From positions 864,001 through 928,000 of the forward strand of contig CAWHBU010000003.1 in the NCBI GenBank assembly GCA_963827685.1: DNA of 64,000 bases. The letters run 5' to 3'. Under the pieces are notes generated by a model. That model saw only the letters and a program-made list of their open reading frames with translations. It ran no database searches and was not told the origin of the DNA. Positions 45,874 through 56,322 of this stretch are shown piece by piece. The translations under genes and the position numbers were made by a program. The DNA comes from an uncultured delta proteobacterium (lineage in GTDB: Bacteria > Desulfobacterota > BSN033 > UBA1163). Positions within the stretch are counted from its first letter, which is position 1. Each line of letters starts with the position of its first letter.

Positions 45874-47115
45874 CTATTGCATCTTGGCCCGACACGCCAA
45901 AGCAGTGCCTACCGGCAGGCAGGCGTTGCAGGATATACATTCCGCCTTGTCTGGTCCCTCTCCGGATCGCCAAAGGATGGGGAGATCCGGCTGGCGGATA
46001 AGGGGCCTGGACATTGAGACGAAATCCGCCGCCTTTGAAGTCAACACTTCTTCGATTTTACTAAATGACCTGAGCCCACCCACCAGGATGACCGTAGCGT
46101 TCGTCTTTTCTTTGAGCGCCTTGCCCCCCTGTAGGAAGTAGGCTTCTTGATCCTGAGCCTTGATGCCAGTCCGCGACTCGGGAACCATCACAGGAAGCCA
46201 GCCCAGCTCCTCCTTCTTCCGGGTCACTGCCTCCCACATGCCTCCGCTGGTCTCAATAGCGGCGAACCCAACCTCTGAGAGCATTTTCCCCACCCGGACC
46301 GCTTCATTGAGGTCTACACCTCCAGGAAGGAAGTCTGTGGTGTTTATTTTGATCAAGATGGGAAAACGATCACCGACCTTCCTTCTGGCGCGTTGATAGA
46401 TATCTTTAATAATCCTGGTCCGATTCTCAGTCGAACCTCCGTATTGATCCTCACGTTGATTGGTCCGTGGCGACAAAAAAGTGCTTAAAAGATAGCCGTG
46501 AGCAGCATGTAATTGAACCCCGTCAAAACCAGCCTCTTGTGCCCGCCGTACGCCCTCGGCAAAGGCCTCGATGATTTCGTTTATTTCGTCCAGGGTCAAC
46601 GCCCTTGGCGTCCGACCAAAGGTAGCATCGTAGACCGCGGATGGCGCGGTTGGCTCCACCACAGGGGGCGCTTCTCTCGGAGGTGCCATGACCTCAGGGT
46701 GCTTTTGAATATAAGCCAAAAAGGCTGGCGGGAGTACCGGCATTAATTTGGCAGCGTCTTCTCGATGAATGACCTGCCTTCCAGGATGGACCAATTGCAG
46801 CATCACCCTGCAGTCCGGAGCAGCTTCGTGCACTGCCTGTGGGATCTTTCGAAGACTCGCGATGAAATCGTCGTTATCCGCCCGTATGCTGAGATCGGGT
46901 GCCAGCGCCTTGGAGTATACGCCCGCGTAGCCGGTGATTATGAGACCCACACCCCCTTTGGCCAAAGTACCGTAAAGGTCAACCAAAAAGTCCGATACCT
47001 CACCTTTACTTGTGGCTGCGCTCTCGTAGGTGGCCGAACGAACTAAACGATTTTTGATTTCGAGCTGTCCAATGCGTGCCGGAGTGAAGACAATCGAGTC
47101 CTTTCTGATAACCAT
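45874..47115 (-). CDS. NADH:flavin oxidoreductase (Old Yellow Enzyme family)
   Basis: NRLVRSAT, AGFDGVQLHAAHGYLLSTFLSP, NQREDQYGGS, C-terminal CISCNAC. Confidence 0.9.
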   Translation of the reverse strand: MVIRKDSIVFTPARIGQLEIKNRLVRSATYESAATSKGEVSDFLVDLYGTLAKGGVGLIITGYAGVYSKALAPDLSIRADNDDFIASLRKIPQAVHEAAPDCRVMLQLVHPGRQVIHREDAAKLMPVLPPAFLAYIQKHPEVMAPPREAPPVVEPTAPSAVYDATFGRTPRALTLDEINEIIEAFAEGVRRAQEAGFDGVQLHAAHGYLLSTFLSPRTNQREDQYGGSTENRTRIIKDIYQRARRKVGDRFPILIKINTTDFLPGGVDLNEAVRVGKMLSEVGFAAIETSGGMWEAVTRKKEELGWLPVMVPESRTGIKAQDQEAYFLQGGKALKEKTNATVILVGGLRSFSKIEEVLTSKAADFVSMSRPLIRQPDLPILWRSGEGPDKAECISCNACLPVGTALACRAKMQ

Positions 47116-47132
47116 ATCCCCTCCTTGGATTT

Positions 47133-47432
47133 TTAACCCATTCCAATTGCTTTAAGAGCTTCCTTAGCTTCAAGCCATATGTTTAAAGAATAGGTGAGGC
47201 CAGGCACCCCATAATATTTTGTGTAACGGGCAGTGAGAACCTCCATCGCCGCTGAAACTTTGGATTTGTCGAACTCATAAATAACAATGGATTTAATTCC
47301 CGCCCCTACTTCGCTGCTGACATAAGGTCCTTTCATGGTTATGTATGCAGGTAGAGGGGGTTGCTCAATAAAACGCTTAGCGTGTTCTTTTACACTTTCC
47401 GGGGGATACGACAAAATACCTATGATAACCAT
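47133..47432 (-). CDS. Hypothetical protein (99 aa)
   Basis: AGGAGG SD before ATG 47432; same direction as the OYE gene. Confidence 0.6.
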   Translation of the reverse strand: MVIIGILSYPPESVKEHAKRFIEQPPLPAYITMKGPYVSSEVGAGIKSIVIYEFDKSKVSAAMEVLTARYTKYYGVPGLTYSLNIWLEAKEALKAIGMG

Positions 47433-47777
47433 TTTTAACCTCCTTTTCTGTGGCAAAGAAATAGATGAGTTCATTTAATCGGACTAAAATCCCGAACATC
47501 AAAAAAGTATGCCCCCAAGAAGTCATAGCAACCCCTTAGAGGCTTCATATGGGCATCTTGTGATAACCCCATTTCATACGGCACCCAAGAAGGTTAGAGG
47601 TTAAGTTGTAAGGTTAATTAGGGACAGGTGGGAAATACTATAAATACACCATACTCTCATCTGCATGGAAAATCAAGGGAAAAATTCCATCCATAATTTA
47701 CCCCATATTGCTGATTTTCGTTTGAAATGTTGCATAGAAGGGCAGAAATCGAAAAACAAGATTACAGTCAACTATTT

Positions 47778-48969
47778 TTATATAGCCTCCTTTACATTGA
47801 AACATGTTCGCTGAGAAAGCATTGCAAAGATCACTCGAATGAGTTTATGAGCTACAGCAAATAAGGCTTTTTGAGGGGGGAGTCCTTCCTTCCTTCTTTC
47901 TCCTCAGGAAATAGGCTTTAAAGAAAACATTTTGAGACACCACAGAGGTCGTCATAAGATAAATCGCTCTTCTTAAATGCCGATTGCCTCGTTTCGACAG
48001 TTTGCTGGCACCCAGAAATTTCCCTGACTGATGAATCGAAGGATCCAATCCCGCAAAGGCAATCAGCTTCTTAGAAGAAGTAAAATTCTTCACCTCCCCC
48101 ACTTCCGCAAGAAAAGGGACAGCGGTATTTGGACCTACTCCCTTGATCGATTGGAGGATCTTCAAATCTTCTACTCTCGTCGCTTTGCATAAGTCGGTCA
48201 GAAGTTTAGTCAATCCCTCCATCCGCTCTTGAAGATGTAACAAGGTGGCAATCTTCCCTTGAACAATGACCTCTTTTGCTGGACTCGCCACGGCCACGGA
48301 ACTCTGGGCCGCCTTAACGATATCCTCCGCCGTAAACGTCAGTTTGTCCCCCACATAGGGCCCCCTCAACGCCTTTGCGATCGCCTTCCGTTTCGCCCCT
48401 CTCACCAAACGAGCCGATGGATACTGCTGCAAAAAACGAAGCATCACACCTGTATAGAGATTCCCGATGGATTCAAGCTCCGGAAAGATCGTTCTCAGTA
48501 CCCTCTTGATCTCTACCTTGGTCGCTGAAATGAGATGACAGAGTGACTCCCTTTCTCGGGACAGATCCCTCAGATCCTGATGATCTTGGGAAATAGAGAA
48601 TTGCGAAATCTCTTCATGGTGATCCAAAAGAAATCTCGCGATCGTCAGAGCGTCCTTTTTATCCGTCTTCGTTTTCCTCAGGGAAAGCTTCGCAAAATTG
48701 GAAATCAACAGAGGATTCACCACGACCGTACGGATTCCTTGGGAACTAAGAAACGAGAAAAGATTGATATGATAGCACCCGGTAGACTCCATGGCCACGA
48801 TCATCTGATCCAGTCTCTCACCATGAGAAGAAAGGGCCTTCAGGAACTCTGAAAACCCATGGGAGTTCATTTCATAAGTCCCCGAGAAATGCCCTTTGCC
48901 CTCCTCATCCAGGCCAGCTGCAGAGAAGAAATCCTTTGAAACATCCGCTCCAACCAAAAGCTTATACAT
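47778..48969 (-). pseudogene. IS110 recombinase/transposase with C-terminal frameshift
   Basis: GADVSK, MESTG, KTDKKDA, FAGLDPSIHQSG; an extra 4 nt in the AAGG run near 47885 diverts from ...EGLPPQKALFAVAHKLIRVIFAML. Confidence 0.85.
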
Positions 48970-48989
48970 CTTTCTCCCTCCTTTCCTGA

Positions 48990-49135
48990 ATCGGCAGGAC
49001 AATGCCTCCCAACCAAACCTCCACCGTGACCAGGGTTCACAGACCCAATCAACCTATTAGGGTTAAGGGAGGCAGGGAACACACTGTACTAAGGGTTCTC
49101 AGACCCAGGAAGTAGTTCGTTCTCCTGCCTTTCCA
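48990..49135 (-). ncRNA. Predicted bridge RNA of IS110 element A
   Basis: Two-loop scaffold shared with 51622-51762; guides ACTTCCT and TACAG match the element's own flanks. Confidence 0.75.
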
Positions 49136-49267
49136 ATCTCTGATTCTTCTATAACACAATTGTTAGTAGGAGGAAGTTATCTTCAGAAAGAAGGATGAGG
49201 ATTTTATCTTCAATTCAGGCTGACCTGCGTTTATGGGTAGGCCGAAGACCAAAGATGGGAAGAAATC

Positions 49268-51307
49268 TTATCTCCTTCTAATCTTCATTGCAGAAAGGTA
49301 TACGGCTACTCCCACAATAAGAAATAAACCAACTACCATTCCAAAGGCTATCCCTGTCAAATAGGTGCCCCTGGATAGGAGCGCAATAGGATTCCAGCTC
49401 GGTTCTCTGATAATTCGACCAAGTTTCCCGCTATATTTTTCAGGAATGTCGGGAATCCCATCGCCTTTCTTGCCCGGAAAGCTCTTCACATACTCCATGA
49501 GGCAAACCCACTCCTTGAGTTCCTGAATTCCAGGTTTTTCCTTATCTCTATCCACCCTTAACGGGAGCAGAAGATCAAAGGGATTGCCCTTTAAAAATTT
49601 TGTGGCGATTGCGTTTCCATTTCGATCCTTCGGGACAATTTCAAGAATACCATAGGTAAAACGACCCACAAATTTGAGAAAGGTCGCGTTATAGAGGTTG
49701 GCTGCAACTCTATAAAGGGTCTTATTCGATTCCGAATAATCGAGAGGTTCATATCCTTCCTCCTCACTTCCCATCAAGATATCCGTTACCCTGTCAAAGA
49801 TCACCCGATTAGGGTTGTATTTGAATCTTAATCCTGAAACCTGGAGAAAGTAGTTGCTCCCTTTTTTGGGATAGATGCTCGTCGACACCTCGAGGATCTT
49901 CTTAATCTCGTGAGCGTAGAGGTAACAAGTGATAAGAGGATATCCCATGGTATCCTCCCCTCTGCTGATCCCGAGCGGGATGGTGCGAAAGAGATCGCAC
50001 ACGGCTATTCTCCCTGTCTTCCCCTTGAGAAGATCATCACGGATCACTCCGTTTGATTCAATGGCAGCCACCACCTTGGTTACAGGATCCTTCTGGTCAT
50101 AATCCAATCGATTAATCGCCCATCGCATAGCATCCGTGATGAGGTTTCCTAAATTGCATTCCTCCTCCAGAAGTCGCAAGTCAAATTGTGTTTTTCCGAT
50201 TACCTCGTAGAAGCTCACATGAAGATCCTTGAGAAACTTCTCATTCACGATCCCAATGTAGGATTCGATTCTCTTTTGAATCTTCTCATCCCCGAGAATG
50301 GTATCATCGATATCCACCAGCCTATATCCTTTCAACTTTACCTTACCCTTTTCATAGGCGATATCAAGGACACCCACATGTTCCCCAAAGGCACCCGCTT
50401 GAACAATCATCGTTTCATTCACGATCAGAGGGGTTTTCAGTTTTGTATGGGTATGGCCGCTTACAATAATATCAATGCCTGGCACCTCCCTCGCCAATCG
50501 ATCATCTTCGGAGAGAGACTTTTTTTGTTGAATACCGCTGTGCGACAGACAGATGACCATATCGACCTTTTCCTTCTCTCTCAGTGTCTTGACCATTTCA
50601 CGAGAAGTGTCGATGGGATCCCTGAATTTGACAGGGGCTGCAAAGGGCGAGACCTCCGCCGCCTCTTTTCCCAATATCCCGTAAATCCCGATCCTGATTC
50701 CCTGCATTTCCTTGATGATATAAGGTTTTACGAGACCCAGGTTGAATATCTCTTCAAGCGTATCATCTTCACGGTTCTGTTTATCGAAAATGACATTCGA
50801 AAAAACAATCTCTGGCATTCCCCCTTTCTGATGAGCCGAAGTGAGCATTTTCGCCAACCCCGAAGGCATGAGATCAAATTCATGGTTCCCCAGAGTCACC
50901 ACGTCATATCCCATCTCTTTCAACAATCGCAGCTCCAGCCCTTCCTCGCGAGCCACCATATGGAAGAGCGAACCCATAAGGAAGTCGCCGGCGTCTAAGA
51001 CAAGAGTTGGATTCGTTCTCTTGGCCTTCTCCGATCTTATCGTTGCCGCTATCCGGGCCCAGCCACCTACCGTTGCGTCATCATGGGTTTTTAAAGGAGT
51101 GTAGTCAATGTTCGGTGCAAAGCCGAGAAGATGGGAATGAAGATCATTGGTATGTAGGATGGTGAGGAGCCTTTCCTCCCCAAGAACCCGTATAGGATTG
51201 AGAATGGTACCAATCACCAATATCCAAAGAAATGCCCTCATTCCTTTCAACTCCATCGAGGTGAGGAGAGAACAAAATCCCTTTGGCCGCCATGACATGG
51301 TTGTCAA
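49268..51307 (-). CDS. 5'-nucleotidase / UDP-sugar hydrolase family, C-terminally membrane anchored
   Basis: LHTNDLHSH, LDAGD, LGNHEFD, VSGHTH; C-terminal TM; real start may be slightly downstream. Confidence 0.9.
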   Translation of the reverse strand: MTTMSWRPKGFCSLLTSMELKGMRAFLWILVIGTILNPIRVLGEERLLTILHTNDLHSHLLGFAPNIDYTPLKTHDDATVGGWARIAATIRSEKAKRTNPTLVLDAGDFLMGSLFHMVAREEGLELRLLKEMGYDVVTLGNHEFDLMPSGLAKMLTSAHQKGGMPEIVFSNVIFDKQNREDDTLEEIFNLGLVKPYIIKEMQGIRIGIYGILGKEAAEVSPFAAPVKFRDPIDTSREMVKTLREKEKVDMVICLSHSGIQQKKSLSEDDRLAREVPGIDIIVSGHTHTKLKTPLIVNETMIVQAGAFGEHVGVLDIAYEKGKVKLKGYRLVDIDDTILGDEKIQKRIESYIGIVNEKFLKDLHVSFYEVIGKTQFDLRLLEEECNLGNLITDAMRWAINRLDYDQKDPVTKVVAAIESNGVIRDDLLKGKTGRIAVCDLFRTIPLGISRGEDTMGYPLITCYLYAHEIKKILEVSTSIYPKKGSNYFLQVSGLRFKYNPNRVIFDRVTDILMGSEEEGYEPLDYSESNKTLYRVAANLYNATFLKFVGRFTYGILEIVPKDRNGNAIATKFLKGNPFDLLLPLRVDRDKEKPGIQELKEWVCLMEYVKSFPGKKGDGIPDIPEKYSGKLGRIIREPSWNPIALLSRGTYLTGIAFGMVVGLFLIVGVAVYLSAMKIRRR

Positions 51308-51621
51308 TCCTCAATTATGGGTTTTGATATACACCCCATTTTGCATTTTTGCCCGATAAAATCATTGGGAACGGTGTTATATTGCGTCAATATAATCTAC
51401 AAAGGAATTATTCAGATGGGCCTGGAGTATATCCCCGCTATCCGTTTGAGGTTGTAATATACACCTTTTTTAGGGTTTTGGGAAATGAATAGTCCAGCAA
51501 GAAGTCCTCTTTTTTCCAAATCCCGCCGATCAAAAAAGCCATGTTAAGGCTTTCACCTCCTACTCATCAAGTATGTTATAAGGGCATGACATAATGAATG
51601 GGTAAAGCCATTCAAGAGGAA

Positions 51622-51762
51622 GGGGCAGGAGGACTTGATTTTCACCTGGGTCATTGAATCCTTTTTGTAGTGTGTCCCCTGCCTCCCCAAACCCTGATAG
51701 GTTGGTTGGGTCTAAAGAACCCTTGTTATGATGGAGGTTTGGTGGGGAGGCTCATCCTGCCT
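51622..51762 (+). ncRNA. Predicted bridge RNA of IS110 element B
   Basis: Same scaffold; guides TTTCACCT (51640-51647) and GTAG (51667-51670) match the element's own flanks. Confidence 0.75.
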
Positions 51763-51794
51763 ATTCTCTAACAATTTAAAAAGGAGGTGTAACA

Positions 51795-52988
51795 GTGTCG
51801 ACACTTTTCGTTGGGATTGACGTTTCTAAGGATTATGCTTCAGCTCAAGGGTTAGATCGTGAAGGGAAGAAACTCTTTTATCTTGAGTTTTCAATGGATG
51901 GAGAGGGATTTTCTCGGTTTCTGGACAGGGTGAAGGCCCATTGTGGGAATCTTTCAGAGGTTACCGTGGCGATGGAATCCACGGGTTGTTACCACATCAA
52001 TCTATTTTCCTTTCTTTCTTCGGAAGGGATTCCCTGTGTGGTGATCAACCCTCTGCTGATTAGCAATTTTGCCAGGTTATCTTTAAGGAAGACCAAGACG
52101 GATAAGAAGGATGCTCTTACCATTGCTCAGTTCCTTTTGGCTCACAAAGATTCCCTTTCCAAGGTCGCGTTTTCACAGAATAGTCAGGATCTCAAGGACC
52201 TGGCCAGAGAGCGAGAATCTCTGACGGTGATGATCTCGGGGTTAAAGAATGACATCCGGAGGCTCCTCAAGATGACTTTTCCGGAGCTGGAGCATCGGTG
52301 TAAGATCTTTACGGAGACGATGCTCCACGTTCTGATCAAGTTTCCTTCGGCCAGGACCCTAACAGCGGCAAAGCCCAAAGAGATTGCCAAGGCCCTGATC
52401 CATGTCGAAGGGAAAAGGAAACGAGTATTGATCAGTGCCGAAGAGATTATTCAAATGGCCAAGGCCTCTGTGGCCACTGACAGTGCAGCCAAGGAACTAA
52501 TCCTCTCAGAGAAGATTTCCACCCTTCTTTATCTCGAAGAGAAGAGGAAAAAGATCACAGGGGTATTGGTGAAGACCTGCCAGTCGATGAGAGTGGAGGA
52601 TCTCGAGATTATCACCTCCATCGATGGGATCAAGCAGATTAACGGTTCTACTTTTTTAGCGGAGTTGGGAGAGATGAACCATTTCAAATCCCACAAGCAT
52701 GTGATTGCTTTTGCAGGGCTTGATCCCTCCATTCACCAGTCAGGTCAATATGAGGGAATCAGCAGAATATCCAAGAGAGGAAATCGTCACCTAAGACGAG
52801 TGATTTTCCTTATGACCACTTGTGTGGTAAGGAGCAATAATATTTTCAGGCAATATTTTCTTAAAAGGAAGGCAGAAGGATTACCGCCTAAAAAAGCAAT
52901 TCTTGCCACGGCTCATAAATTGCTGAGGGTCCTTTTTGCCATGCTAACAACTAAATCTTACTTTCAGAAGGAGGTGGTCGAAGTATAG
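51795..52988 (+). CDS. IS110 recombinase/transposase (intact)
   Basis: GIDVSK, MESTG, KTDKKDA, FAGLDPSIHQSG, SKRGN, AHKLLRV. Confidence 0.95.
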   Translation: MSTLFVGIDVSKDYASAQGLDREGKKLFYLEFSMDGEGFSRFLDRVKAHCGNLSEVTVAMESTGCYHINLFSFLSSEGIPCVVINPLLISNFARLSLRKTKTDKKDALTIAQFLLAHKDSLSKVAFSQNSQDLKDLARERESLTVMISGLKNDIRRLLKMTFPELEHRCKIFTETMLHVLIKFPSARTLTAAKPKEIAKALIHVEGKRKRVLISAEEIIQMAKASVATDSAAKELILSEKISTLLYLEEKRKKITGVLVKTCQSMRVEDLEIITSIDGIKQINGSTFLAELGEMNHFKSHKHVIAFAGLDPSIHQSGQYEGISRISKRGNRHLRRVIFLMTTCVVRSNNIFRQYFLKRKAEGLPPKKAILATAHKLLRVLFAMLTTKSYFQKEVVEV

Positions 52989-53205
52989 TTGACTACTACT
53001 TTTCAATCCAGGATAATCCCCAAAGCCGACGATTACGGGCTGAAATCAAGTACTTCAATACAAAAGATGAAAACCATATCGAAACATTTTTACCTGCTTA
53101 AAAACAGAAGATAGATAGCAGATATTCAAACTTCTGCGATATCATAATTCATGGTCTTCTCCCGTTTGAGCCCTTACGGTGTCTAATAGGATTGAGTTAC
53201 TCCGA

Positions 53206-53238
53206 TACGGGGACGGGTTTCAAAACCCGCCCCTGTAC
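53206..53238. repeat. REP-like palindrome
   Basis: TACGGGGACGGGTTT-C-AAAACCCGCCCCTGTA. Confidence 0.5.
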
Positions 53239-53244
53239 TGCCTT

Positions 53245-53529
53245 TTAGTACTCCGGAGGCATAGGTGGGGGCGGTGTCTCCTTTTTCGGTTTCTCAGCCA
53301 CAACCGCCTCTGAGGTGATCAAAAGAGAGGCCACGCTGGCCGCATTCTGTAAGGCTAACCTCACAACCTTCGTTGGGTCGATGATCCCTGTCTCCATCAT
53401 ATTTACATACTCTTATTTATCGGCATTTAATCCGAAGGCCCCTTTCTCCTGTTTCACCTTCTCCACCGCTACGGAGCCTTCCTTCCCGGCGTTCTCAGCT
53501 ATCTGACGAATGGGTTCAAGGGCCCTCAA
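53245..53529 (-). pseudogene. groL: 3'-terminal fragment of chaperonin groEL with internal stop
   Basis: [15 protein letters not shown]...NADK*EY...[34 protein letters not shown]. Confidence 0.85.
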
Positions 53530-53643
53530 GCCGCCAGCCTAAGGGTAGTTAGTTAAACGTCTATCTAATTTCGATGAAAGGATTCTCTCATCAGGCGTTC
53601 CTTTGGGGTCGGTTGACCGGATAGAGGGTTGAGGTAATGTTTT

Positions 53644-54726
53644 TCATAAAGCACGATCCATTAATGGAAGTGAAATTCCAAATGACTCACCAAGGACCGC
53701 CAACTCTTTTATCGTGGCCGGAACCAGAGGTATCCCATCTTTCAGCCGTTCTGTCTCGGTTCTCAATTCCGGTTCCCCAGGCATCAGAATCTCTGCGGCA
53801 TTCTGCGCTTTCGCGCTTTCTTTAATGCTTTTGATGTAACGGTCCATCTCTTTCTTAAAGTTTTCCCTTCCGATGAAGCAGTCTGGGTCGATGGCCATGA
53901 AGGAATGACAAGTGCCCTGAATACCCGTTTTATCCTCTTCATAGAGGCTTTTGATCTCTTTGGTCAGTTTGCCACCCGTGAGCACGGCGGTGAGCATTTC
54001 ATGGACCAGCACCATTCCATAGCCTTTATGGCCCCCCACCGGCGTCAGGGATCCCCCTCCTTCATACCCTTGATAGGGGTCGTCAGTCGGCAAGCCGTCT
54101 TTGTTAACGGCCCACCCCAGGGGAATTTTCTCCCCTTTTTTGCGGGCTAGGATGAGTTTCCCAGACGACACAACACTCAATGAAAAATCCAGAACTACAG
54201 GAGGGTATTGATCGGCGGGAATGGCATAAGCCATAGGATTATTGCCTATAATTCTCTCTCGTCCGCCCCAGGGGGACATCATGGGAGCAGAGTTGGAGAC
54301 GACGTAGCCGATGAAATCCTTCTGCAGAGCCATTATGGGGAAGAGGCCGGCCACGCCGAAGTGACCGCTGTCTTTCACCGAGACCCAACCGATGCCATAC
54401 TCTTCCGCCTTCGCGATCGCCTTCTCCATGCCCCGGTAGGCGGCGATATGTCCCATCGACCCGTGAGCTTCCAGGAAAACCGTGGGGCCTTTTTCCCTGA
54501 CGGCCGTCAGTTTGCACTCTTTGCGTACATACCCTTTCTGCAGCCTCAGGATATAAATAGGCAGGCGGGTGACGCCATGGGTTTCGATGCCCCTTAGGTC
54601 CGACCTTACCAGTAGGTCGGCTACAATCTCTGCATCGGCAGCGGGCACCCCTGCTTTCATGTAGGCCTGACAGCAGAAATCCTTAAGGTCGGCGAACAAA
54701 ACCCGCCGGACAGTATTTTTCTCCAT
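53644..54726 (-). CDS. Ldh_2-family (malate/L-sulfolactate/ureidoglycolate dehydrogenase-like) oxidoreductase
   Basis: DLRGIETHG, SGHFG, IGNNP, GGHKGYG, MPGEPE. Confidence 0.9.
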   Translation of the reverse strand: MEKNTVRRVLFADLKDFCCQAYMKAGVPAADAEIVADLLVRSDLRGIETHGVTRLPIYILRLQKGYVRKECKLTAVREKGPTVFLEAHGSMGHIAAYRGMEKAIAKAEEYGIGWVSVKDSGHFGVAGLFPIMALQKDFIGYVVSNSAPMMSPWGGRERIIGNNPMAYAIPADQYPPVVLDFSLSVVSSGKLILARKKGEKIPLGWAVNKDGLPTDDPYQGYEGGGSLTPVGGHKGYGMVLVHEMLTAVLTGGKLTKEIKSLYEEDKTGIQGTCHSFMAIDPDCFIGRENFKKEMDRYIKSIKESAKAQNAAEILMPGEPELRTETERLKDGIPLVPATIKELAVLGESFGISLPLMDRAL

Positions 54727-54888
54727 AACATGCCTCCTTGGAAGAAAGTGTCATTTTCTGTGTTAGGTGTCAGTCTTGGTCTTTTGCACCCACTCTCAGG
54801 GGACCTTAACGATCCCCATTCCCACCAATCCAAAATTGATGATACCTTGATGAAGACTCTCAATTTGACAGACTTTCTCCCCTGTCTA

Positions 54889-56322
54889 TCATTCAATTCC
54901 AGCCAGACGTTTAGCACATCTCTTCTTATAATCGATATCTGACTCCCTGAAGATTGTGACCCTGTGGGCCGCCGGTGAACCTCCTCCATGAATATCTGAA
55001 ATCGTATCCGCACTCTCCATGGCCATCTTTTCGATCAAACGAAGCATCTTGATCCTTTTCTCCACCGGCACTCCGGTAGCACCCTTCAAATATTTTTTCA
55101 GCAATTCTCCAATTTCGGAGTTTTCGAAATCCCTATCCGAAGGCAGATCGGCCACAAACCCACCTGTCACATCGATGAGAAGGCGGGTGACTTCAGCCAT
55201 CTCTTTCCCTTCGTGGATCTTGGAGGCATTGGCCAAGATCGGATCGATGAAATAGGTCCCCGAAGACTCTTTCTTCCCTTCATAAGAGGCTGCCAGGCTA
55301 CAACCGTAAAGGGTCTCTGCCATATGAATCATGTTGATAACCTTTTCCCTGTGTTGGCTTACTTTTGTAGTTCCGTTATACTCCATCATCAGCAGGGCTG
55401 CGCCAGTCATGACATCGATTTTCCCCGATTTACAACCGCCGTGGGATTGACGATGAAAGGCAGAAAAGCGGCTCACCACCTCTCCCGTAAATTCAACTTC
55501 TCTGAACATGAAGACTCGATCCCATGGTACCAACACCTCGTCAAAAATGAGTGTAGGACAGTATTTGCTATATCGGATATTACCGCAATCCACTCCTTCG
55601 ATCTCACGAGTGTCCATGGAATTTCTTCCCACCACATGGATGAGCCCTTCCGTATCCGAGGAAATGGCAAAAGCTAAGGCATAATCCTCATCCCCTTTCT
55701 GCATCACCCTTGTGGGAAGTACAATAATTTCGTGAGCACTCAAGGACCCTGTCTGGTGAACCTTTGCTCCCCTCACGATGATCCCTTCTTTGGTTTGTTC
55801 GACCACGCGGAGGTACATATCTTTATCGGGCTGTTCGTGAGGGCTCAGATTACGATCTCCTTTTACATCGGTCACGCTGGCATTTCCTGTCAGATCATTT
55901 TTCTGCATGTATTTCAGGAATTCCATGAACCGATCATAGTAATGGGTCCCGTATTTTTTATCGATGTCATAGGTCACAATCGAAAGGGTACAGAGGCAGT
56001 CCAAGCCCGTGCATCTCTGGTGGCATGTTCCTACATAGCCTCCCAAGATACGGTTGATCTTCACACGCATCACAAGATCTTCAATGGACTGTGGGGGCAG
56101 GGTAAATCGATTGATATGCTCTCCTGTTAAAGGAGAGATGGTGGTAATGAGATCCTTATATTTTTCGTGATTCGCCAACTCATAAGTTGCACCTGTGGCA
56201 TTAATCCCTGCGCGAATACGGGGATTATCCACCACATTCTCTATCTTCTCGCCAAACATGTAGGCCGTAGGTTTCAATCTTCTCAAACTCACCAGGTATT
56301 GTTCAAATGTCTTTAGGGCCAT
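54889..56322 (-). CDS. 4-hydroxybutyryl-CoA dehydratase (AbfD)-like FAD/[4Fe-4S] enzyme
   Basis: CHQRC, TDVKGDR, GAKVHQTG, HRQSHGGCK, HGGGSP. Confidence 0.8.
   Translation of the reverse strand: MALKTFEQYLVSLRRLKPTAYMFGEKIENVVDNPRIRAGINATGATYELANHEKYKDLITTISPLTGEHINRFTLPPQSIEDLVMRVKINRILGGYVGTCHQRCTGLDCLCTLSIVTYDIDKKYGTHYYDRFMEFLKYMQKNDLTGNASVTDVKGDRNLSPHEQPDKDMYLRVVEQTKEGIIVRGAKVHQTGSLSAHEIIVLPTRVMQKGDEDYALAFAISSDTEGLIHVVGRNSMDTREIEGVDCGNIRYSKYCPTLIFDEVLVPWDRVFMFREVEFTGEVVSRFSAFHRQSHGGCKSGKIDVMTGAALLMMEYNGTTKVSQHREKVINMIHMAETLYGCSLAASYEGKKESSGTYFIDPILANASKIHEGKEMAEVTRLLIDVTGGFVADLPSDRDFENSEIGELLKKYLKGATGVPVEKRIKMLRLIEKMAMESADTISDIHGGGSPAAHRVTIFRESDIDYKKRCAKRLAGIE

What the first reader, a model, noticed from the sequence alone, without database searches (positions are those of the whole stretch)
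47768..52992. Two IS110 elements with naturally reprogrammed bridge-RNA guides, each matching its own insertion site
Seen: A (minus strand) reads GGCAGGAGAAC-GAACT[ACTTCCT]-GGGTCTGAGAACCCTT-AG[TACAG]-TGTGTTCCCTGCC. B reads GGCAGGAGGAC-TTGAT[TTTCACCT]-GGGTCATTGAATCCTT-TTT[GTAG]-TGTGTCCCCTGCC. The scaffold is conserved with a compensatory A-U to G-C change, and the bracketed guides differ. A's rebuilt target is ACTTC-CT-GTA and B's is TTTCAC-CT-AC: the left guide equals the top strand and the right guide is its reverse complement. A second loop with the same GGGTC..GAACCC hairpin carries ATAGGTTG(A/G)TT and GGAG, fitting the shared donor junction ATAGTTGA-CT-CC with wobble. Known: this is the logic of IS110/IS621 bridge (seek) RNA recombination with a CT core. 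Inference: an uncharacterised programmable recombinase pair with guide-target covariation visible within one locus.
Basis: partly seen in the sequence, partly recalled or inferred. Interest (0 to 1): 0.88.

Follow-up and report, generated by a model that had tools for sequence, protein, structure and literature searches.

The report
Two IS110 bridge-RNA insertion sequences
The region holds two different IS110-family mobile elements, each carrying an upstream bridge RNA whose guide loops spell out its own insertion site; this is a clear natural example of a mechanism already described in 2024, not a new one.

Summary
Element A (minus strand, 47766-49172) and element B (plus strand, 51557-52994) each encode a DEDD/Tnp IS110 recombinase. 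Each has a ~140-nt two-loop RNA in its left end.

The first loop matches the flanks and the second matches the element ends (ATAGTTGA-CT-CCTAC). I built a covariance model and found the same RNA upstream of 147 of 160 homologous loci. Its stems covary: 17 of 26 pairs show double changes.

In 105 loci the guide matches the flank at five positions left and five right of the CT core, 8.0 of 10 against 4.3 shuffled.

Corrections:
- A's recombinase carries a 4-nt insertion that removes the conserved C-terminal helix. A nevertheless has two identical copies, so it may be mobilised in trans.
- B has three copies, with 0-1 differences, and is intact.
- An orphan left end with a third guide set lies elsewhere in the genome.

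No RNA or circle data were available.

This is a new member of a known kind (IS621-type bridge recombination; Durrant 2024, Hiraizumi 2024). Interest is moderate.

The parts
47766..49172 (-). Element A1, 1407 bp including both CT core copies (RE core 47767-47766, LE core 49172-49171)
   Evidence: The ends CT-CCTACTAACAA and ATAGTTGA-CT were located. An identical 1407-bp copy lies at G000:C1. Contigs from other samples run through 47767 into uninterrupted GAAGTA..., i.e. empty sites.
47845..48969 (-). A recombinase ORF (374 aa from the ATG; 385 aa from an upstream TTG), with its C-terminus frameshifted
   Evidence: PF01548 1.2e-36 and PF02371 1.4e-24. It is 55% identical to B. The conserved tail continues in another frame in both A copies.
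47880..47895 (-). Site of the 4-nt insertion in a GGAA repeat that shifts the frame of A's recombinase
   Evidence: The 4 nt are absent from 7 of 7 homologues aligned. They are also absent from contigs of runs X2 and X4, and present in X1 (table 4, place 47883).
48993..49129 (-). A bridge RNA core, from GGCAGG to CCTGCC (covariance-model match 48985-49135, 171.5 bits)
49107..49113 (-). A left target guide ACTTC plus core CT
   Evidence: Identical to left flank plus core in A1. Sister copy A2 matches 4 of 5. Positions L-1 to L-5 covary with the flanks.
49084..49090 (-). A right target guide AGTAC plus core AG (reverse complement CT-GTACT)
   Evidence: A2's flank is CT-GTACT, 5/5. A1's is CT-GTAAT, 4/5. 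Positions R+1 to R+5 covary.
49047..49057 (-). A left donor guide ATAGGTTGATT
   Evidence: It matches the right end ATAGTTGA-CT with one bulged G and a U.G pair at the core C. Compensatory variants occur in homologues.
49019..49022 (-). A right donor guide core-pairing GGAG
   Evidence: It pairs with CT-CC of the left end. Homologues show GAAG with CT-TC (2 loci) and GGTG with CA-CC (3 loci).
49148..49153 (-). A -10-like hexamer TATAGA in the left end, 17 nt from the RE TTGACT once the ends are joined
   Evidence: A itself has 2 mismatches to TATAAT. The family pattern is 81 of 105 loci with at most 1 mismatch at spacer 17-18.
51557..52994 (+). Element B1, 1438 bp including both CT core copies
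   Evidence: Ends located. Copy B3 (C6) is identical and B2 (C3:474k) differs at 1 nt.
51795..52988 (+). B recombinase ORF, 397 aa, intact
   Evidence: PF01548 7.3e-39 and PF02371 6.2e-25. It aligns to the ISCro4 (9t56) and IS621 (8wt6) transposases at E about 1e-15, with D9, E61, D103, D106 and S316-G317 at the aligned motif positions.
51624..51761 (+). B bridge RNA core (covariance-model match 51618-51769, 167.6 bits)
51641..51647 (+). B left target guide TTCAC plus core CT
   Evidence: Flank matches: B1 5/5, B3 5/5, B2 4/5.
51664..51670 (+). B right target guide TTTGT plus core AG (reverse complement CT-ACAAA)
   Evidence: Flank matches: B2 CT-ACAAA 5/5, B3 CT-ACAAG 4/5, B1 CT-ACTAC 3/5.
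51697..51707 (+). B left donor guide ATAGGTTGGTT
51733..51736 (+). B right donor guide core-pairing GGAG
51577..51582 (+). B -10-like hexamer TATAAG, preceded by TGT, in the left end
   Evidence: Spacer of 18 nt from the RE TTGACT at the joined ends.
52989..52994 (+). B right-end TTGACT. It is the left-donor sequence plus core and also a -35-like hexamer of the predicted circle-junction promoter. The stop codon TAG lies just upstream at 52986-52988.
   Evidence: TTGACT is present in 99 of 105 homologous right ends.

Best explanation
A and B are two distinct members of one subfamily of IS110-group insertion sequences. They work like IS621. Each carries, between its left end and the recombinase gene, a bridge RNA of about 140 nt with two internal loops.

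The first loop specifies the insertion site. Its 5' strand has the sequence of the five bases left of a CT core plus the core, so it pairs with the bottom strand. Its 3' strand is complementary to the core plus the five bases to the right. The second loop recognises the element's own joined ends, ATAGTTGA-CT-CCTAC.

A DEDD/serine recombinase tetramer holds both loops and exchanges strands at the CT core. This inserts a circular copy of the element without target duplication.

Joining the ends is predicted to create a promoter for the RNA and the recombinase: TTGACT from the right end, and TATAAN 17-18 nt into the left end.

A and B keep the same scaffold and donor code but carry different target guides: ACTTC-CT-GTACT for A and TTCAC-CT-ACAAA for B. 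They therefore insert at two different sites of repeated intergenic sequences.

What is shown here: domain content, ends, RNA structure covariation, guide-flank and guide-end matching, and recent copying. What is inferred from published IS621 work: RNA expression, the circular intermediate, catalysis and programmability.
For: Recombinase:
- PF01548 and PF02371 are present in both ORFs.
- B aligns to the ISCro4 and IS621 transposases with the DEDD and Ser-Gly motifs in place.

Ends and copies:
- There is a CT core at both junctions and no inverted repeats. There are five copies in the genome, each at a different site.
- Uninterrupted paralogous sites span the predicted junctions. Contigs from other samples continue through 47767 into an empty site.
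- A1 equals A2 over 1407 bp. B1 equals B3, and B2 differs at 1 nt. Copying was therefore recent.

RNA:
- The covariance model built from A, B and an orphan copy finds the RNA just upstream of the recombinase gene, at E <= 1e-8, in 77 of 80 genome loci and 70 of 80 metagenome loci.
- 94.8% of cells are paired, and 17 of 26 pairs change on both sides. Slid controls reach at most 64.8%.

Guide versus flank, in 105 loci (106 usable of 155 hits, one duplicate removed):
- Left positions L-1 to L-5 match at .97/.93/.92/.74/.54, against .82/.51/.48/.47/.31 shuffled.
- Right positions R+1 to R+5 match at .98/.79/.82/.79/.73, against .45/.32/.60/.38/.39 shuffled.
- There is no signal at L-6, L-7, L-9, L-10, R+6 or R+7. 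L-8 is only marginal (.41 against .29 shuffled, shuffled maximum .42).
- Taking one locus for each of the 51 distinct guide pairs gives 8.04 of 10, against 4.29 shuffled (sd 0.27, max 5.16).

Donor side: GATGATT goes with GATGACT (2 loci), GGTGATT with GGTGACT (1), GAAG with CT-TC (2) and GGTG with CA-CC (3).

Promoter: a -10-like hexamer lies at spacer 17-18 in 81 of 105 joined ends, and none at spacers 10-16.

Published model: passages read from PMC11208160 and PMC11208158.
Against: - No RNA run holds the element, and only assembled contigs could be laid. There is therefore no evidence for the transcript, its ends, or a circle junction.
- A's recombinase is frameshifted, so A may not be autonomous.
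- B1, the window copy, matches its right guide at only 3 of 5 positions.
- Element ends in the homologues were located by conserved end motifs, and 49 of 155 RNA hits could not be used.
- The loci are related, so the shuffle test is not a probability.
- No Rfam family matched.
- An alternative fold, with the 5' GGCAGGA pairing with the 3' TCCTGCC, fits the alignment as well as the IS621-like fold does.
Confidence: 0.9

Rival explanations
1. A is a non-autonomous element. Its own recombinase is disabled by the 4-nt insertion, and it was copied by B's recombinase (55% identical) loaded with A's own bridge RNA. In this genome the RNAs would then act as exchangeable guide modules for one enzyme.
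For: - The frameshift removes the C-terminal helix, which is nearly invariant in 14 aligned family members.
- Both A copies carry the frameshift yet are identical over 1407 bp at different sites.
- A and B share scaffold and donor code, and their ends are both ATAGTTGA-CT-CCTAC.
- B is intact and was recently active.
- Bridge RNA supplied in trans works for IS621 (PMC11208160, passage).
Against: - The truncated A protein keeps both Pfam domains and all catalytic motifs and may still be active.
- Gene conversion between the two copies could also explain their identity.
- No cross-reactivity data exist for recombinases that are 55% identical.
Confidence: 0.25
2. The elements are inactive relics, and the guide-flank matches only record past insertions.
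For: A is frameshifted. No RNA or circle evidence was found. Perfect 12-mer targets remain unoccupied, 2 for A and 3 for B.
Against: Copies at different sites differ at 0-1 nt. B's ORF and RNA are intact. Close relatives at 70-97% protein identity are abundant in metagenomes.
Confidence: 0.07
3. The conserved upstream structure is only a cis-regulatory leader of the recombinase mRNA and not a guide.
For: It lies directly upstream of the ribosome-binding site. A conserved 3' TCCTGCC can pair with the 5' end.
Against: Loop positions match the flanking DNA at ten positions across 51 distinct guide pairs. They match the element ends with compensatory changes. A leader function does not predict either result.
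Confidence: 0.03

Closest known systems
IS621 (E. coli) bridge recombinase and bridge RNA (Durrant et al. 2024, PMC11208160; Hiraizumi et al. 2024, PMC11208158)
   Same: - DEDD RuvC-like domain plus Tnp domain with a Ser-Gly loop.
- CT core.
- RNA in a long left end, with the target loop first and the donor loop second.
- The 5' strand of each loop equals the top strand and the 3' strand is its complement.
- The core is included in all four pairings.
- The right-donor pairing is discontiguous or short.
- The promoter is rebuilt across the joined ends.
- Targets lie in repeated intergenic DNA.
   Different: - It is only a distant relative in sequence (E 1.4e-15). B has 397 aa; IS621 has 326 residues by the paper's domain ranges.
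- The flank signal here covers 5 bases on the left and 5 on the right of the core. The paper's analysis used a nine-base LTG and a four-base RTG. The same paper notes that some orthologues have a longer RTG.
- The left donor guide has one bulged G and a U.G pair at the core C.
- A lacks the 5' stem-loop that B-type left ends carry.
ISCro4 / IS622-type bridge recombinases used for genome engineering (structure 9t56; preprint 10.1101/2025.05.14.653916, seen in the search listing only)
   Same: Best solved-structure match of B (E 1e-15), with the catalytic motifs aligned.
   Different: It is a distant homologue. Nothing is known about the activity of the elements found here.
IS1111-group elements with seekRNA/bridge RNA in the right end (group described in PMC11208160; the name seekRNA is recalled from Siddiquee et al. 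2024, which I did not read here)
   Same: Same recombinase family and the same RNA-guided logic.
   Different: In that group the RNA lies in a long right end and there are long subterminal inverted repeats. Here the right end is 6-8 nt and the RNA is in the left end, so these elements are not members of the group.
ISPpu10 of Pseudomonas putida (preprint 10.64898/2026.03.19.712850, abstract start seen in the listing)
   Same: An IS110 element whose insertions all map to copies of one conserved intergenic sequence. The abstract raises the idea that specificity goes beyond RNA-DNA pairing.
   Different: Here I only saw conserved flank motifs beyond the guided positions and a palindromic 'ideal' target. 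No structural requirement was tested.

Membership tests
IS110 family, IS110 group (bridge-RNA-guided insertion sequences) | [quoted passage not shown] | tested here: met
   A 1.2e-36 and B 7.3e-39. D9, E61, D103 and D106 of B align to the motif positions of ISCro4. The same motifs are present in A.
IS110 family, IS110 group (bridge-RNA-guided insertion sequences) | C-terminal Tnp domain (PF02371) with a conserved serine | tested here: met
   A 1.4e-24 and B 6.2e-25. HQSG in both aligns to ESGS of ISCro4. A lacks the helix after the Pfam domain because of a frameshift.
IS110 family, IS110 group (bridge-RNA-guided insertion sequences) | No terminal inverted repeats, no target duplication beyond a shared core dinucleotide | tested here: met
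   CT occurs at both junctions of all 5 copies. The ends are CT-CCTAC... and ...ATAGTTGA-CT. 102 of 105 homologous loci have a CT core and 3 have CA.
IS110 family, IS110 group (bridge-RNA-guided insertion sequences) | Long left end carrying the non-coding RNA, and a short right end | tested here: met
   The left end is about 200 nt in A and 238 nt in B. The right end is 6-8 nt, with the stop codon inside ATAGTTGACT.
IS110 family, IS110 group (bridge-RNA-guided insertion sequences) | RNA with two internal loops, each closed by a hairpin, supported by covariation | tested here: met
   94.8% of cells paired, 17 of 26 pairs with double changes, slid controls at most 64.8%. The basal helices have an equally compatible alternative.
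IS110 family, IS110 group (bridge-RNA-guided insertion sequences) | Target-loop guides match the flanks (left guide equals the top strand, right guide is its complement) | tested here: met
   Own copies match at 8-9 of 10 positions. In 105 loci and 51 distinct guide pairs the mean is 8.04 of 10 against 4.29 shuffled.
IS110 family, IS110 group (bridge-RNA-guided insertion sequences) | Donor-loop guides match the joined element ends | tested here: met
   GTTGAUU pairs with GTTGACT and GGAG with CTCC. There are 8 loci with compensatory changes in four kinds. The ends vary little, so this test is thin.
IS110 family, IS110 group (bridge-RNA-guided insertion sequences) | Promoter rebuilt across the RE-LE junction of the circular form | tested here: met
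   By sequence only: TTGACT in 99 of 105 right ends, and a hexamer with at most 1 mismatch to TATAAT at spacer 17-18 in 81 of 105. No transcript data.
IS110 family, IS110 group (bridge-RNA-guided insertion sequences) | The RNA is expressed and binds the recombinase; recombination is programmable | not testable with these tools
   No RNA holder was listed, and only contigs could be laid.
IS110 family, IS1111 group | Guide RNA in a long right end, with subterminal inverted repeats of 7-17 bp | tested here: not met
   The RNA is in the left end and the right end is 6-8 nt. Group definition taken from PMC11208160.

The most novel reading that the evidence does not exclude
In this genome bridge RNAs behave as exchangeable guide modules for one enzyme. 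The frameshifted element A was copied recently, since its two copies are identical. An orphan left end with an intact third bridge RNA also exists: its 12-mer target has 12 perfect copies in the genome, against about 0.8 expected. Both would be served in trans by the intact recombinase of element B. This would be a natural multi-guide, single-recombinase arrangement.
Probability: 0.2. Interest if true: 0.55.

Novelty: new member of a known kind. Interest (0 to 1): 0.35.

Why it matters
It adds a well-documented subfamily of bridge recombinases. Loci carrying it are labelled Nitrospirota/Thermodesulfovibrionales, Syntrophales and other 'delta proteobacteria', Fervidobacterium and Cloacimonadota. 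The subfamily has a clear 5+2+5 target code, 51 naturally different guide pairs and natural CA-core variants.

Such natural series are useful for choosing and engineering new programmable recombinases. They can also be used to test how far recombinases and bridge RNAs of related elements are interchangeable. It does not change the current understanding of the mechanism.

Tried and rejected
- **Rfam:** no match at E <= 1 in 46000-55000 or in an uninterrupted target repeat, L166. I do not know whether Rfam holds a bridge-RNA family.
- **Strand folding:** the call on the two RNAs failed on a length limit (151 against 150). I did not repeat it, because the alignment fold and the pair counts replaced it.
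- **Expression:** no RNA holder was listed.
- **Laid contigs from 4 DNA runs:** they showed no RE-LE joint. Contigs cannot show rare circles. The short joints at 47634/47704, 48798/49001 and 53184/53200, and the 51535->49206 record, probably come from related organisms or repeats. I did not interpret them.
- **Composite transposon carrying the 5'-nucleotidase-like gene:** rejected. The two elements differ, are inverted with their left ends facing inward, and each sits in its own copy of the target repeat.
- **Programmed +1 frameshift at GGA-AGG-A in A:** considered and not supported. Relatives simply lack the 4 nt, and AGG codons are used freely in B's ORF.
- **Enrichment of the exact 12-mer targets:** A has 2 perfect sites and B has 3, against about 0.7-0.8 expected, with one-mismatch counts near expectation. 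This is too few to call enrichment.
- **Nature of the target repeat:** sigma-54 or sigma-70 promoter readings made by eye did not fit, and it remains unidentified.
- **An intermediate output I do not use:** one search's A1-versus-A2 difference list was an off-by-one artefact of my script. It was replaced, which shows 0 differences.
- **Literature:** a search for 'bridge RNA' with 'Nitrospir' gave one irrelevant paper. 'IS110' with 'Fervidobacterium' gave 4 papers, none on bridge RNA by title. Supplementary tables of PMC11208160 could not be seen, and this subfamily may be listed there.
Full report
**What is there.** The region holds two ORFs with the two domains of IS110-family recombinases. 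ORF 47845-49002 on the minus strand has PF01548 at 1.2e-36 and PF02371 at 1.4e-24. ORF 51795-52988 on the plus strand has them at 7.3e-39 and 6.2e-25. The two proteins are 55% identical (207 of 376). Between them lies a minus-strand gene with metallophosphoesterase and 5'-nucleotidase C-terminal domains.

Both elements begin CT-CCTAC and end ATAGTTGA-CT. With both core copies included, A spans 47766-49172 (1407 bp, minus strand) and B spans 51557-52994 (1438 bp, plus strand).

**Copies in the same genome.** The window is G000:C3:864001-928000. A has a second copy on contig C1. B has two more, on C3 near 475 kb and on C6 near 136 kb. A1 and A2 are identical over 1407 bp. B1 equals B3, and B2 differs at one base.

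All five copies sit at different places with the same boundaries:
- A1: aACTTC|CT|GTAatc
- A2: tCTTC|CT|GTACTc
- B1: TTTCAC|CT|ACtact
- B2: atACAC|CT|ACAAAg
- B3: cTTCAC|CT|ACAAgt

The guides are ACTTC-CT with AGTAC-AG for A, and TTCAC-CT with TTTGT-AG for B. Each guide matches its own sites at 8-9 of the 10 non-core positions and the other element's sites at 1-3 of 10 (read).

The window copies are the weaker right-side matches.

Rebuilt empty sites match uninterrupted paralogous sequences across the junction. Contigs from two other samples run through position 47767 straight into GAAGTA..., the uninterrupted target.

**The RNA in relatives.** B's protein has thousands of relatives: 4015 with E <= 1e-3 among 8000 scored, the top 120 at 70-100% identity. 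I fetched 80 genome loci and 80 metagenome loci. I built a covariance model from A, B and an orphan copy.

At E <= 1e-8 the model finds the RNA just upstream of the recombinase gene in 77 of 80 genome loci and 70 of 80 metagenome loci. That gives 155 distinct hits including the copies in the window's own genome. The hits include Fervidobacterium islandicum copies whose proteins are only 39% identical.

On the 84-row alignment, 94.8% of cells pair and 17 of 26 pairs change on both sides. Slid controls reach at most 64.8%.

A second fold fits equally well, with 94.9% paired and 11 of 19 double changes. In it the 5' GGCAGGA pairs with a conserved 3' TCCTGCC and the donor stem is longer. I cannot decide between the two folds.

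In each locus I located the left end by the [CT]CTA[CT] motif nearest the RNA. I located the right end by TAG[ATG]TG[AG] after the gene. Both motifs are independent of the guides.

Of 155 hits, 106 were usable. The rest were dropped for these reasons:
- 34 had an end or flank that was not found or lay off the contig;
- 7 had an element length outside 1380-1480 bp;
- 5 had unequal cores at the two ends;
- 1 had a short guide;
- 2 had a partial RNA.

Removing one exact duplicate left 105. Guide and flank agree as follows:

| Position | Observed | Shuffled |
|---|---|---|
| L-1 | .97 | .82 |
| L-2 | .93 | .51 |
| L-3 | .92 | .48 |
| L-4 | .74 | .47 |
| L-5 | .54 | .31 |
| R+1 | .98 | .45 |
| R+2 | .79 | .32 |
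| R+3 | .82 | .60 |
| R+4 | .79 | .38 |
| R+5 | .73 | .39 |

There is no signal at L-6, L-7, L-9, L-10, R+6 or R+7, and only a marginal one at L-8 (.41 against .29 shuffled, shuffled maximum .42).

There are 51 distinct guide pairs. With one locus per pair the mean is 8.04 of 10, against 4.29 shuffled (sd 0.27, max 5.16). Because the loci are related, the shuffles are not a probability. The agreement is identity at named positions across many different guides, however, not mere correlation.

**Donor side and promoter.** The right end is almost invariant: TTGACT in 99 of 105 loci. The left donor guide reads (A/G)GTTG(A/G)TT, with U.G pairing at the core C and one extra base against ATAGTTGACT.

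Where the ends vary, the loop follows:
- GATGATT with GATGACT (2 loci);
- GGTGATT with GGTGACT (1 locus);
- GAAG with CT-TC (2 loci);
- GGTG with CA-CC (3 loci that have a CA core).

The two bases after the right donor guide tend to complement the two bases left of the target core. GA goes with TC in 50 loci and GT with AC in 17, against 24 discordant. This fits the published handshake guides (passages of PMC11208158 read), but only weakly.

When the ends are joined in silico, a hexamer within one mismatch of TATAAT lies 17-18 nt after TTGACT in 81 of 105 loci, and none lies at spacers 10-16. This is the junction promoter described for IS110 elements (PMC11208160). It is predicted here, not observed.

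A's ORF has four extra bases in a GGAA repeat near 47883. They are absent from 7 of 7 aligned homologues and from contigs of two other samples. They are present in run X1, the likely source run.

The shift replaces the last ~35 residues. In B this tail aligns to the C-terminal helix of ISCro4, and it is nearly invariant in a 14-sequence family alignment. Both A copies carry the shift and yet are identical. There are three possibilities: the truncated enzyme still works, A was moved by B's enzyme, or the copies were homogenised.

Elsewhere in the genome there are two further remnants:
- an orphan left end with an intact RNA and a third guide pair, with no recombinase gene (C2 near 72.7 kb; 167.1 bits);
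- a remnant holding the target loop only (C2 near 1198.7 kb; 61.9 bits).

**Comparison with what is known.** The arrangement, strand logic, core and loop order are those of IS621. The published covariation analysis already covered 5,511 target pairs and 2,201 donor pairs. It noted that some orthologues have a longer right target guide and that the right donor pairing is discontiguous.

The elements here are only distant sequence relatives of the solved enzymes (E about 1e-15). They have a shorter left and a longer right guide signal, and they are not IS1111-type. Recent work on excision and half-match insertion (abstracts read) may bear on B1's weak right half. I did not test this.

**Limits.** There is no RNA evidence and there are no raw reads. 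Supplementary tables of the papers were closed, so this subfamily may already be listed there.

**Verdict.** The open points are A's autonomy, the orphan RNA and the RNA's basal fold.

Noticed in passing
L161:~330-542 (G000:C2:~72630-72841): An orphan IS110 left end (CT-CCTACCATCAA...) with a full bridge RNA (167.1 bits) but no recombinase gene or right end nearby. Its guides are TCTTC-CT and TTATTTC-AG. Both hairpins read GGATC..GAATCC, which is compensatory against A and B. Its 12-mer target TCTTCCTGAAAT has 12 perfect copies in the genome against about 0.8 expected.
   Followed up: partly
L162:232-341 (G000:C2:~1198731-1198840): A remnant holding only the target-binding loop of a bridge RNA (61.9 bits; guides TCTTC-CT and TAACTTC-AG). 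The sequence diverges after the first stem.
   Followed up: no
window 47880-47895 (minus strand), and G000:C1 copy: A's recombinase carries a 4-nt insertion in a GGAA repeat. It is absent from relatives and shared by both identical A copies. Homologues L005 (in-frame TAA) and L028 (shifted frame) are also broken within a few codons of the same place.
   Followed up: partly
window 47500-47767 and 49173-49260; 51480-51556; L166:180-360 (G000:C2:699580-699760): Both elements sit in copies of a repeated intergenic sequence. One uninterrupted copy (L166) carries a perfect B target (CTTTGT-AG-GTGAA, reverse strand) about 50 nt from a near-A target (CTTCTTC-CT-GTAATC). Across 62 right flanks of the CT-G class from several phyla, a motif aTTtcaa..gg.AAt recurs about 40 nt from the insertion point, beyond what the guide reads. 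The nature of the repeat is unknown. There was no Rfam match.
   Followed up: partly
bridge RNA, window 48993-49129 (-) and 51624-51761 (+): The 5' GGCAGG(A) can pair either with the CCTGCC that closes the target loop or with a second conserved TCCTGCC at the 3' end. In the second case the donor stem extends to TGCCTCCC/GGGAGGCA. Both folds show compensatory changes in different homologues.
   Followed up: partly
target-binding loops of the 105 loci (alignments A4, A5): The distal part of the 5' loop strand (positions L-4 to L-8) mirrors the right target guide. The guide-specified target is therefore a 5-bp palindrome around a TTCCT loop (0.58 complementarity in that register against 0.18-0.27 in the others). 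The real flanks are only weakly palindromic (0.42 against 0.36 shuffled).
   Followed up: partly
L015, L023, L108: Natural variants with a CA core in place of CT at both ends. There are matching changes in the right target guide (..CTG or ..GTG) and in the right donor guide (GGTG).
   Followed up: partly
window 49268-51307 (-): The gene between the two elements encodes a 679-aa protein with calcineurin-like phosphoesterase and 5'-nucleotidase C-terminal domains. Nothing links it to the elements.
   Followed up: no
G000:C2:566966-567994, C6:542008-542439, C2:758619-758870, C3:1043237-1043461: Further distant IS110-like reading frames (22-26% identity) and two short fragments (44-60% identity) of related recombinase genes elsewhere in the genome.
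   Followed up: no
L059-L068 (Fervidobacterium islandicum H-21 chromosome): Ten copies of a 39%-identical relative carrying the same RNA (76-80 bits), in two variants. The variants differ in the right target guide: reverse complement CT-CCCAA against CT-CCTTA.
   Followed up: no
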